Origin: Escherichia coli | GTDB lineage: Bacteria; Pseudomonadota; Gammaproteobacteria; Enterobacterales; Enterobacteriaceae | DNA: 64,000 bases | Strand: one strand, 5' to 3' | NCBI RefSeq assembly: GCF_044647545.1 | Contig: NZ_CP172818.1 | Shown here: positions 6,001 to 9,000 of the stretch, piece after piece | Numbering within the stretch: position 1 is the stretch's first letter | Layout: each line of letters opens with the position of its first letter | Program-made: the position numbers

Positions 6001-9000
6001 ATGTTCGTCATTATTCAGCGTTTCAATATCCAGCGCATTCAGCCCCATCATTGACGTTGCCAGCGCACTGCGCAGGGTGTTCTCACGTTCGGGTGTCATC
6101 ACCGCCTGCAACAGCCAAAGCATCTCCTGTGCTTCCAGAGTTTCAAAAACACTGTCGCGGTTCGAAAGGTAAACGGAAGGGATTTCCAGCAGCGTTAAGG
6201 CATCGCGCACCTGAGCGGCCTCCTGGCGGCTGCGCACCAGCACACTGATGTCCGAAGCACGCACCGGACGCGCGTCGTCGCCGTTCATCAGCAACGCTTC
6301 GCCCCGCTGTCCGGCTTGTAGCCAGTCGCGGATTTGCGCAGCACATACCTGCGCCATGGTACTTTGATAGTCGCCAACGCCGCAGCTTTCGCCTTCCATC
6401 AGCCACATTTTCATCGCAGGCTGCGTTTCACCTTTAAACACAAAACGTAACGCCTGATTTTTCCCGGCTGATTTCACTGGAATAAAAGGAATTTCGCGAA
6501 ACATGAACGCGTCATCAGTCTGACTGAAAAGTTTGTTAACGCTGTTCACCATTCCCGGTGCGGAACGCCAGTTGGTGTCTAAGGTGTAGTGGGCGTGAAC
6601 TTCGCTACGCGCCTTCATATAAGTGAAGATATCCGCACCCCGGAATGCATAAATGGCCTGTTTCGGGTCGCCAATCAGCAACAATGCGGTTTCCGGCTGA
6701 TGGTGCCAGATACGGCGAAAAATTCGGTACTGCTGGGGGTCGGTATCCTGAAATTCATCGATCATTGCCACCGGGAATCGCGTACGGATCGCCGCTGCCA
6801 ATACCTCGCCGCTTTCACTACGCAGCGCGGAATCGAGCCGACTTAACATGTCATCAAAACCCAATTCGCCACGGCGGCGTTTTTCACGCGCTACTGTTTC
6901 GCGGATCTCAGCTAATGCGCGAGTGATCACCAGATCGCGGATCGACAATGGTTCTGCAAGCAGTTGATCGATCGCCTCAAACAGTGGATGTCGCGGGGTT
7001 TCCCCCCGGCTTTCGTGCGATCTTCTAAGAAACGCTGAGAGAATTTTTCCAGCGACTCTGGCAACTGATAGCTGTTGGTCTCTTCTTCTGCCCAGGCGCT
7101 GATCTTGTCGATCCATTTAGCCTGATTGCTACGGTTAAACTTGCGTCGATCAATACCAGAAGATTCGATCAGCGCATCCAGTTCACCCACCGCGTCGCGC
7201 CACTGCTGTTTTACCGTATCAATACGCGCCACAATTTGCGCGTGGCGGGAAGCCAGCGTTTCATCATCGGGCGGCGGCGCTTTGATAACCGGCGCTTCGC
7301 CTTGCAGATAACGATTAATATCGCGCAGTAACGCCTGCGGCCCTTTCCAGGTTTCAAAGACGACCTGGGCAATTTCACGCGGCAGCGGGTAGCAGTGGCG
7401 ACGCCAGAAATCGGCGCAGGCCTGGTAACGTAGCAGAGACTCATCTTCAATCAGCTGCTGCTCAAACAGCATGCCGGATTCAAAGGCATTCAGGTTGAGC
7501 ATGCGCTGGCAAAAACCGTGAATAGTAAAGACTGCCGCTTCATCCATCTGCCGTTCGGCTAACAACAACCACTGCGCGGCTTGCGCTTTATCGTCGATCT
7601 CTTCCAGCAGGCGTTTGTACAGTGGATTGTCGGTGGTTTCACGCAGACAGGCGATGCGCAACTCGTGGATATTGCTACGGATACGACCGCGCAATTCTGC
7701 CGTGGCAGCCTCGGTAAAGGTGACCACCAGCAGTTCTTCAACGGTCAGCGGGCGGGGAAAGGCGGCAGAACCGCCTAGTCCAAGTAACAGGCGCAAATAG
7801 AGCGCCGCAATCGTAAAGGTTTTGCCTGTGCCGGCAGAGGCTTCAATCAGGCGCTCGCCCTGTAAGGGCAAGCGCAAAGGATCTAGTGTCTCGGCGACAT
7901 CACTCATTCTTTTCACTCATCAGGGGCATTGTTTGCTGCAACGCGCTGACGTTCTCCCACACTTTCCAGCCTTCAGGATGCACATATTCGGCTTTCCCGT
8001 TCTGGCTGCCGGAAATCTGCGACAGAATAGCCATACCTTGCGGCTCGACCACCGCCTGATGGAAGAAATCAGCAAGTTTTTGCGGCGTCAGCAGTTTTAT
8101 CTGGGCCACGATTTTATCACGCGAATCGAAGCGCATATTGCCGCGATCGAAATCTTTACTTAACTTCGATGCTTCTTCGCCGAGCGTTTGCGGTGCCTGC
8201 AGCATCTGGGTAATTACCGCCTGCTGGATTTGCGCAAACTCTTCTGGCTTCATCGCCCGCAGTTTCGCTTCTGCGGTCGGGAAAAACGCCTTGTAACGCT
8301 CCCACAAGAATGAAGGCTGTTTATCATTGCTTTGCAACAGGAAGCCCATGCCCCACTGACGCCCCACGCTCATTGGAAACGCAAACACGGCATAGCCCAA
8401 CTGTTCTTCGGTACGCAACTGATTGTAGAACCACGGCTGTACGATCTGCCCCAACAGAGAACTATACGCTGAACTGGTGTATTCATCGTAGCCAGTCGGT
8501 ACAAATACCGCTGCCAGTGCGGAGTCGGTGCTGTTACCGGCTTTTTCAAAGATGACGGATTGTTTTTTATCGACCACGACATCTTTGTTACGACACCACT
8601 CCGAACCATCAGCGCCCAACTGTTTTTGCACATCGCGTGCCAGCGTTGTTGCCTGGGCCTCGGTCATGTTGCCGATAACCATAAACTCTGGTCGAGCCCC
8701 TGATTTTAAGGCGTCGCGATAGGCCAGAACTTCTTTCAAAGTAATGGAGGGCAAAATTTTGCGCCGTTCATCTCGCGAGAAGTATGGTACTTGCGAGAGC
8801 ATCTGCGCGGGCATAATCGCCTGCTCGAACGCTTTGCCCTTTTCTGCAGAATCCATCATCTGGTTATACCAGGACTTCGCCTGCTCAAGCTGATCTTCCG
8901 TAGCGGTATAGCTAAAGTACCCCTCGAGCAATGCCTGGAACAGCTGCGGCAGGCGCTGGGTGTAACCATTGGCATTAACCATAAGGCCGTTGTTAGCATT

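What the first reader, a model, noticed from the sequence alone, without database searches (positions are those of the whole stretch)
6927..7116. recB is one nucleotide short of an intact reading frame, with the break in a C6/G6 homopolymer
The recB locus (4366-7907) is 3542 nt, one short of a multiple of three. Two overlapping ORFs (329 aa N-terminal, 916 aa C-terminal) meet at the run of six C at 7002-7007, where inserting one base restores a continuous ...DRTKAGGETPRHPLFEAIDQLL... reading. The other ~55 genes in the window are intact, so this is not a generally error-ridden assembly. If real, the strain lacks RecBCD nuclease/helicase activity, with consequences for recombination, phage restriction, and linear-DNA stability; if not, it is a homopolymer base-calling error.
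Basis: seen in the sequence. Interest (0 to 1): 0.6.

Follow-up and report, generated by a model that had tools for sequence, protein, structure and literature searches.

The report
recB frameshift: probable homopolymer sequencing error
The E. coli DNA-repair gene recB really is one base short in this sequence, but the missing base lies in a run of seven G/C that long-read sequencing repeatedly miscounts in unrelated strains, so the "broken" gene is most likely an assembly error.

Summary
recB (4366-7907, minus strand) is 3542 nt and splits into two overlapping ORFs at a C6 run (7002-7007). Adding one C gives an 1180-aa RecB identical to that of the closest relatives.

The break is most likely not biological:
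- The window is otherwise base-for-base identical to ST648-type genomes over 32.6 kb.
- The same C6 call occurs in 47 of 5426 complete RefSeq E. coli genomes, on many unrelated recB haplotypes and clustered by submission batch.
- All five chromosomes of one Nanopore-only R10.4.1/Medaka paper carry it, as does a PacBio-only genome.
- Two control G7 runs in the window (actS, xdhA) show G6 at the same rate (42 and 45 genomes). They recur in the same assemblies far more often than chance allows.
- Public read-set assemblies with this break often carry further -1 homopolymer deletions nearby, at recurring sites.
- The window is not error-free: 42441-42601 is a garbled, poly-A-decayed stretch found in no other genome.

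Verdict: homopolymer under-call (about 0.88); genuine recB-null slippage mutant (about 0.10). Low interest. Reads or Sanger sequencing across 6950-7060 would settle it.

The parts
4366..7907 (-). recB (exodeoxyribonuclease V beta subunit) as it stands in the window: 3542 nt, one base short of the 3543-nt intact gene
   Evidence: With one C restored, the product is identical to WP_001571833.1. That product scores 2339.9 bits on NCBIfam NF008128, whose cut-off is 1697.
7002..7007 (.). C6 run (G6 on the coding strand). All closest relatives have C7 here. This is the site of the single missing base.
   Evidence: One search shows the run. Searches show a single gap against FDAARGOS_497 in 32,584 aligned columns with 0 mismatches. 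One search places the gap at this run.
6927..7907 (-). N-terminal fragment ORF: RecB residues 1-302 (Walker A GTGKT at aa 26) plus 24 out-of-frame residues and a stop
   Evidence: It scores 592 bits on NF008128, below the cut-off.
4366..7116 (-). C-terminal ORF (916 aa). Below the run (7001 downwards) it is in the true RecB frame. It holds motif II DEFQD (aa 384 of RecB) and the nuclease domain. Gene callers report an 854-aa product starting at GTG 6930.
51882..51888 (.). Control G7 run inside actS, intact in the window. A G6 call at this site occurs in 42 of 5426 complete genomes.
53507..53513 (.). Control G7 run inside xdhA, intact in the window. A G6 call at this site occurs in 45 of 5426 complete genomes. 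Eight of those genomes also have the recB C6.
42441..42601 (.). Corrupted intergenic stretch. G and C are dropped, and the sequence then decays into A11/A13/A20/A20 runs. It shows that the source assembly has consensus failures.
   Evidence: No complete E. coli genome matches it; the best identity over 42250-42800 is 90.5%.

Best explanation
The strain most likely has a normal, intact recB. The run of seven G (coding strand nt 901-907; seven C on the window's plus strand) was counted as six during long-read base-calling or consensus polishing. That under-count creates an apparent -1 frameshift.

What is shown:
- The sequence is one base short, exactly in this run.
- The same miscount recurs in unrelated assemblies and is tied to sequencing method and batch.

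What is inferred:
- This particular window comes from such an assembly. No reads or metadata are available to confirm it.
For: 1. **The break is the only lesion.** The window is identical to FDAARGOS_497 over 1-32583 except for this one gap, and identical again over 49825-64000. At least 25 complete genomes give the same score over the first 25 kb.
2. **The lineage has intact recB.** The window's exact RecC protein is listed in 7382 blocks of the collection. All 34 contigs read (from the blocks with the longest contigs) carry an intact 1180-aa recB.
3. **The C6 call recurs on unrelated haplotypes.** It is present in 47 of 5426 complete RefSeq genomes. Across complete genomes and read-set assemblies it sits on at least 12 different recB haplotypes, 0-94 mismatches from the window. 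In the 14 haplotype copies compared over the full gene it is the only indel.
4. **It clusters by method and batch.** All five chromosomes of a Nanopore-only study (R10.4.1, Guppy hac, Flye, Medaka, no short reads) carry it (with PMC10652846). Strain 2012C-4227, sequenced with PacBio RSII and HGAP3 only, also carries it (PMC4683243).
5. **Control runs behave the same way.** G7 to G6 at actS and xdhA occurs in 42 and 45 genomes. The three lists overlap in 3, 8 and 5 genomes, where about 0.36, 0.39 and 0.35 are expected (P = 6e-3, 3e-9, 2e-5). The error is therefore a property of the assemblies, not of recB.
6. **Read-set assemblies show the error signature.**
   - Logan assemblies of public runs with the same truncated product often carry further -1 homopolymer deletions within a few kb. 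Examples are A6 to A5, A5 to A4, T4 to T3 and T8 to T7, at the same sites in independent runs.
   - Runs of one project from unrelated strains share the call (SRR34878311 and SRR34878312, 372 mismatches apart).
   - One run shows C8 instead.
7. **Neighbouring frameshifts in some C6 genomes.** Two of the three C6 genomes whose 40-kb flanks were examined have other 'frameshifted' genes nearby.
8. **The window itself is not clean.** It contains a corrupted stretch at 42441-42601.
9. **Published background.** Deletions in homopolymers are the characteristic residual error of long-read assemblies (PMC12007338).
Against: - No reads, quality values or assembly metadata for this window are available, so the call cannot be checked directly.
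- The other three G/C runs of seven (28433, 51882, 53507) and all A/T runs up to 9 match the relatives. The assembly is therefore accurate at most homopolymers.
- A Logan assembly of run ERR15516425 is 100% identical to window 1-16930, including C6. It has no other difference from FDAARGOS_497 in 22.5 kb. If that run were short-read data from the same or a sibling strain, the deletion would be real. Its platform is unknown to me.
- A G7 run is also a genuine slippage-prone site.
Confidence: 0.88

Rival explanations
1. The deletion is a real, very recent -1 replication-slippage mutation in the G7 run that inactivates recB. The cell would make RecB 1-302 plus a 24-residue out-of-frame tail, and at best a separate C-terminal piece. 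The helicase core would be split between Walker A (aa 26) and motif II (aa 384). RecBCD helicase-nuclease activity would be lost, giving the classical recB-null phenotype.
For: - The base is truly absent from the sequence.
- The other G/C 7-runs and all other homopolymers in 64 kb are correct.
- The strain carries other differences from its relatives that look genuine: an IS2-associated deletion and two SNPs.
- An otherwise clean Logan assembly, ERR15516425, has the same call on the same haplotype.
- G7 runs are natural slippage sites (established knowledge).
Against: - The same call appears at the same rate at control G7 runs and co-occurs with them within assemblies.
- It is present in 5 of 5 unrelated strains of one Nanopore-only study.
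- It is found on at least 12 haplotypes with no second lesion in any of them.
- All 34 long contigs read that carry the identical RecC allele have intact recB.
- recB-null E. coli has poor viability and is counter-selected (established knowledge), so the prior for catching one in a wild ST648-type isolate is very low.
Confidence: 0.1
2. The G run is a reversible on/off switch (a contingency locus), or is bypassed by transcriptional or ribosomal slippage. Under this reading, RecBCD level is modulated and the gene is not destroyed.
For: - Both shorter (C6) and longer (C8) tract calls exist in public assemblies.
- The tract lies early in the gene.
Against: - The C6 and C8 calls track sequencing batch and co-occur with errors at unrelated runs.
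- The tract encodes conserved Gly-Gly-Glu.
- The tract is C7 in about 99% of complete genomes.
- No slippage signal was examined here, and none is known to me for G6 in E. coli.
Confidence: 0.02

Closest known systems
Homopolymer-length under-calling in long-read (Nanopore, PacBio) assemblies, which yields false 'frameshifted' pseudogenes
   Same: - A single-base deletion inside a run of 7.
- Recurs at the same site in unrelated strains.
- Tied to long-read-only pipelines (PMC10652846, PMC4683243).
- Accompanied elsewhere by other -1 homopolymer deletions.
- Matches the error profile described in PMC12007338.
   Different: In this window it is the only homopolymer error in 64 kb. The source assembly is therefore much cleaner than a raw R9-type assembly, and its platform is unknown.
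Classical recB null mutants of E. coli (for example recB21, delta-recB)
   Same: If the deletion were real, it would truncate RecB before ATPase motif II and separate the N-terminus from the nuclease domain. A null is the expected outcome.
   Different: - Those are laboratory alleles with demonstrated phenotypes.
- Here there is no phenotype and no read support.
- The population pattern points to an artefact.
Poly-G/C contingency loci (phase-variable genes of Neisseria, Haemophilus, Campylobacter)
   Same: A coding poly-G tract whose length change toggles the reading frame.
   Different: - Those tracts are usually longer, vary in high-accuracy data, and sit in surface or restriction-modification genes.
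- Here the tract is fixed at 7 in about 99% of genomes, and the variation tracks sequencing method.

Membership tests
RecB, exodeoxyribonuclease V beta subunit (NCBIfam NF008128 / TIGR00609) | Full-length match above the curated cut-off | tested here: met
   The restored protein, identical to the FDAARGOS_497 allele, scores 2339.9 bits against a cut-off of 1697, and 1547.5 bits on TIGR00609. On NF008128 the two fragments as encoded fall below the 1697-bit cut-off (592.1 and 1692.5 bits). On TIGR00609 (cut-off 696.05) the N-terminal fragment falls below it (340.4 bits) and the C-terminal fragment exceeds it (1174.8 bits).
RecB, exodeoxyribonuclease V beta subunit (NCBIfam NF008128 / TIGR00609) | Gene order recC-ptrA-recB-recD, as in E. 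coli | tested here: met
   recD 2540-4366, recB 4366-7907, ptrA 7900-10788, recC 10964-14332, all on the minus strand.
RecB, exodeoxyribonuclease V beta subunit (NCBIfam NF008128 / TIGR00609) | One continuous ORF joining Walker A, motif II and the C-terminal nuclease domain | tested here: not met
   In the sequence as given, the frame breaks at codons 301-303. One inserted base restores it.
Long-read homopolymer under-call artefact | A -1 indel located inside a homopolymer of about 6 or more | tested here: met
   C7 to C6 at 7002-7007
Long-read homopolymer under-call artefact | The same call recurs independently on unrelated haplotypes and clusters by sequencing batch or technology | tested here: met
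   - 47 genomes, in batches.
- At least 12 haplotypes.
- 5 of 5 genomes of a Nanopore-only study.
- A PacBio-only genome.
- Unrelated strains from the same SRA projects.
Long-read homopolymer under-call artefact | Comparable rate at control homopolymers in unrelated genes, with co-occurrence in the same assemblies | tested here: met
   actS 42, xdhA 45 and recB 47 of 5426 genomes. The lists overlap in 3, 8 and 5 genomes against about 0.4 expected.
Long-read homopolymer under-call artefact | Orthogonal accurate reads from the same isolate show the full-length run | not testable with these tools
   There are no reads or metadata for the window's source. It is not in the RefSeq complete-genome set (best 99.8% over 601 nt) and not in the GTDB representatives.
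Genuine decaying pseudogene | Additional lesions or relaxed constraint in the gene, or the lesion shared by a clade | tested here: not met
   - There are no other differences from intact alleles.
- The closest relatives all have C7.
- All 34 long contigs read that carry the same RecC allele have intact recB.
Phase-variable contingency locus | Tract-length polymorphism seen in high-accuracy data within a lineage | tested here: inconclusive
   - Length variants exist (C6, C8), but they track error-prone data sets.
- The platform of the cleanest case, ERR15516425, is unknown.
- The C8 search of complete genomes was uninformative, probably because the low-complexity filter masks runs of 7 or more.

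The most novel reading that the evidence does not exclude
The recB G7 tract could be a genuine mutational hotspot. Under this reading, a small fraction of natural E. coli (up to about 1% of isolates) sits in a RecBCD-off state and can revert by +1 slippage. Such a state might help cells survive conditions where RecBCD is harmful, or help them accept linear DNA. The window and run ERR15516425 would then be real examples in the ST648-type lineage.
Probability: 0.03. Interest if true: 0.6.

Novelty: not a real feature. Interest (0 to 1): 0.08.

Why it matters
Taken at face value, this finding would label a wild ST648-type E. coli as RecBCD-deficient, which would be a striking and probably wrong phenotype call.

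- **False pseudogene:** this recB run is a recurrent false 'pseudogene' in about 0.9% of 'complete' RefSeq E. coli genomes. PGAP annotates it as 'frameshifted'.
- **Quality marker:** in one Nanopore-only study it was miscalled in all five genomes. It is therefore a useful quality-control marker for unpolished long-read assemblies.
- **Caution:** gene-loss analyses of repair genes should allow for this kind of error.

Tried and rejected
- **Finding the source genome.** None of these attempts succeeded:
  - No complete RefSeq E. coli genome matches 6700-7300 at 100%.
  - An exact 40-mer from the corrupted stretch is absent from the GTDB representative genomes.
  - Exact look-ups of strain-specific proteins returned nothing that identifies it. 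The IS2-truncated GH15 protein (379 aa) gave only a metagenome contig and one Logan contig, neither reaching recB. The 393-aa form gave nothing. The LuxR-like protein carrying the private SNP gave nothing.
- **Counting the +1 (C8) allele in complete genomes.** The result was 'no match'. I reject it as uninformative, because BLAST's low-complexity filter very likely masks runs of 7 or more in such a short query. This reading is my own inference from the DUST scoring rule.
- **A-run differences as extra errors in the window.** I rejected two candidates:
  - At 41222, FDAARGOS_497 is the outlier, not the window.
  - At 43324, the A18 tract is hypervariable among relatives, which have A17, A19, A21 or a much shorter interrupted tract.
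- **Literature on a natural recB G7 frameshift.** The search found nothing relevant.
- **Programmed frameshifting or transcriptional slippage.** I considered these as a rescue and set them aside. No signal was examined, and the population pattern explains the data without them.

Full report
**What is in the sequence**

The window is E. coli chromosome, with the gene order amiC-argA-recD-recB-ptrA-recC and onward. On the minus strand there are two overlapping ORFs: 4366..7116 (916 aa) and 6927..7916 (329 aa from a GTG). The true recB ATG is at 7907. The plus strand has six C at 7002-7007.

The span 4366-7907 is 3542 nt, whereas recB in the closest relative is 3543 nt. Inserting one C produces a single 1180-codon ORF. 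Its product is identical to RecB WP_001571833.1 of strain FDAARGOS_497.

The break falls in codons 301-303 (coding-strand G7, nt 901-907). The N-terminal product is therefore RecB 1-302 plus 24 out-of-frame residues. Walker A (aa 26) ends up separated from motif II DEFQD (aa 384) and from the nuclease domain.

The restored protein scores 2339.9 bits on NCBIfam NF008128, above the cut-off of 1697. On NF008128 neither fragment reaches the cut-off; on TIGR00609 the C-terminal fragment does.

**How the window compares with its nearest relatives**

A 601-nt query around the site matches 5425 of 5426 complete RefSeq E. coli genomes. None matches at 100%; the best are 99.8%, with 602 nt in the record. 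Over the first 25 kb, at least 25 genomes give the same top score with a 25,001-nt span. These include FDAARGOS_497, IMT16316, ECONIH1 and other ST648-type strains.

Direct alignment with FDAARGOS_497 gives the following:
- 0 mismatches and 1 gap in 32,584 columns. The gap is the missing C.
- 0 differences over 49825-64000.

The frameshift is therefore the only lesion in recB, recC, recD and 30 kb of surroundings. The window's exact RecC protein is listed in 7382 blocks of the public collection. All 34 contigs read (from the blocks with the longest contigs) have an intact 1180-aa recB.

**The same call in other genomes**

A 34-nt query can seed only if the run is exactly C6. It hits 47 of 5426 complete genomes. 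RefSeq annotates recB there as a pseudogene, 'frameshifted'.

These genomes are not a clade. Their recB regions differ from the window by 46-82 mismatches per 3.5 kb. With the Logan and GenBank contigs included, C6 sits on at least 12 distinct recB haplotypes. In the 14 copies compared over the full gene it is the only indel.

The hits cluster by accession batch:
- eight CP027xxx genomes, seven of them CDC STEC isolates;
- seven CP127xxx;
- six CP146xxx;
- eight CP183xxx;
- three CP122xxx.

Within a batch, hosts and genome sizes differ widely.

Two batches could be traced to papers:
- **PMC10652846** describes five unrelated farm-animal strains (Ch1, C25, C51, APEC20/16, APEC37). They were sequenced only with Nanopore R10.4.1, Guppy hac, Flye and Medaka, with no short-read polishing. 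All five chromosomes are in the C6 list.
- **PMC4683243** describes 2012C-4227, sequenced with PacBio RSII and HGAP3 only. It is also in the list.

**Controls**

The true sequence of these 64 kb holds only four G/C runs of 7: recB, an intergenic run at 28433, actS at 51882 and xdhA at 53507. I searched for synthetic G6 versions of the actS and xdhA runs. They occur in 42 and 45 complete genomes, essentially the same rate as recB's 47.

| Pair of lists | Genomes shared | Expected by chance | P |
|---|---|---|---|
| recB and actS | 3 | 0.36 | 6e-3 |
| recB and xdhA | 8 | 0.39 | 3e-9 |
| actS and xdhA | 5 | 0.35 | 2e-5 |

A loss that is strongly deleterious (recB) is exactly as frequent as changes in two dispensable genes, and all three concentrate in the same assemblies. 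That is what a technical error predicts. Selection on recB does not predict it.

**Read-set assemblies**

The exact 326-aa truncated product is on record in about 35 blocks, mostly Logan assemblies of public runs. Its 90% cluster has 562 members of 279-326 aa.

- **Extra deletions nearby.** Half of the ten contigs inspected carry further single-base deletions within 7 kb, nearly all in homopolymers. They recur at the same sites in independent runs: A6 to A5 in ptrA, and A5 to A4 and T4 to T3 in recB.
- **An error-rich example.** DRR393831 has an ST648-type haplotype with 0 mismatches and six -1 homopolymer deletions in 18 kb.
- **Unrelated strains in one project.** SRR34878311 and SRR34878312 are 372 mismatches apart in 21 kb, and both show G6.
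- **The opposite miscount.** One run, ERR13669447, shows C8.

This is the known signature of homopolymer-length uncertainty in long-read data (PMC12007338).

**The window is not error-free**

At 42441-42601, in the intergenic region beside yqeK, the window departs from all relatives in a way that looks non-biological. First, G and C are deleted one by one. Then nearly every base becomes A, giving runs of 11, 13, 20 and 20. Finally the sequence snaps back into register. No complete genome carries this stretch, and the best identity over 42250-42800 is 90.5%.

I cannot explain the mechanism. It looks like a consensus or polishing failure.

Two A-run differences that I first suspected are not errors in the window. 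At 41222, FDAARGOS_497 is the outlier. At 43324, the A18 tract varies among relatives.

**Evidence that keeps the real-mutation reading alive**

- Apart from recB, every homopolymer in the window agrees with its relatives.
- A Logan contig from ERR15516425 is 100% identical to window 1-16930, including C6. It has no other difference from FDAARGOS_497 in 22.5 kb. If that run were accurate short-read data, the deletion would be real in that isolate.
- However, the Nanopore R10.4.1 genomes of PMC10652846 show the same pattern. C25 has recB as its only homopolymer-run difference in 27 kb. Clean flanks therefore do not discriminate between the two readings.

From established knowledge, recB-null E. 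coli has low viability and is UV-sensitive and recombination-deficient. Catching such a mutant in a wild isolate is unlikely a priori.

**Verdict**

The best explanation is a one-base under-call of a G7 homopolymer in a long-read-derived assembly (confidence about 0.88). A genuine -1 slippage mutation giving a recB null remains possible (about 0.10). A regulated or phase-variable tract is very unlikely (about 0.02).

The feature is ordinary and most likely not real biology, so interest is low. Reads or a Sanger trace across 6950-7060 would settle it.

Noticed in passing
window 42441-42601: This is a corrupted-looking intergenic stretch between yqeK and a hypothetical gene. Relative to all relatives, G and C are dropped one at a time. 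The sequence then decays into A11, A13, A20 and A20 runs and returns abruptly to register. Here 551 nt of the window correspond to 577 nt in relatives. No complete E. coli genome carries it (best 90.5%). It is probably a consensus or polishing failure, but the mechanism is unexplained.
   Followed up: partly
window 48494-49824: A 1331-bp IS2 (insC/insD ORFs on the minus strand) replaces about 16.9 kb of the ETT2 type III secretion island present in ST648-type relatives (FDAARGOS_497 locus L004 16936-33879). It truncates an OrgA/MxiK-like gene and a glycoside hydrolase family 15 gene. The same truncated GH15 product occurs in one ENA metagenome contig (ERZ1745125) and one Logan contig (SRR29703654). 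The junction therefore exists in other samples.
   Followed up: partly
window 43324-43341: An A18 tract upstream of ygeG is hypervariable among otherwise identical ST648-type genomes. FDAARGOS_497 has A17, IMT16316 has A19, ECONIH1 has A21, and strain ST648 has a much shorter, interrupted tract. This could be true slippage, sequencing uncertainty, or both.
   Followed up: partly
window 47210 and 48005: Two single-base differences (A for T, C for T) are private to the window when compared with all four ST648-type relatives examined. They lie in a LuxR-type regulator gene and a hypothetical gene of the ETT2 remnant.
   Followed up: no
window 41222-41229: Here the window has an A8 run. It agrees with IMT16316 and ECONIH1, whereas FDAARGOS_497 has A7, which shifts the annotated start of the downstream hypothetical gene. 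The reference, not the window, is the odd one out.
   Followed up: yes
window 51882-51888 (actS) and 53507-53513 (xdhA): These G7 runs are intact in the window. They are called G6 in 42 and 45 of 5426 complete RefSeq E. coli genomes, in the same submission batches as the recB C6. These sites are likely recurrent false pseudogenes in public long-read assemblies.
   Followed up: yes
L029-L037 (Logan and GenBank contigs), recB C-terminal part: The 854-aa C-terminal RecB product is identical at the protein level across recB alleles that differ from the window's by up to 55 nucleotide substitutions over the whole 3.5-kb gene. This indicates very strong purifying selection on recB, including in the copies that carry the apparent frameshift.
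   Followed up: no
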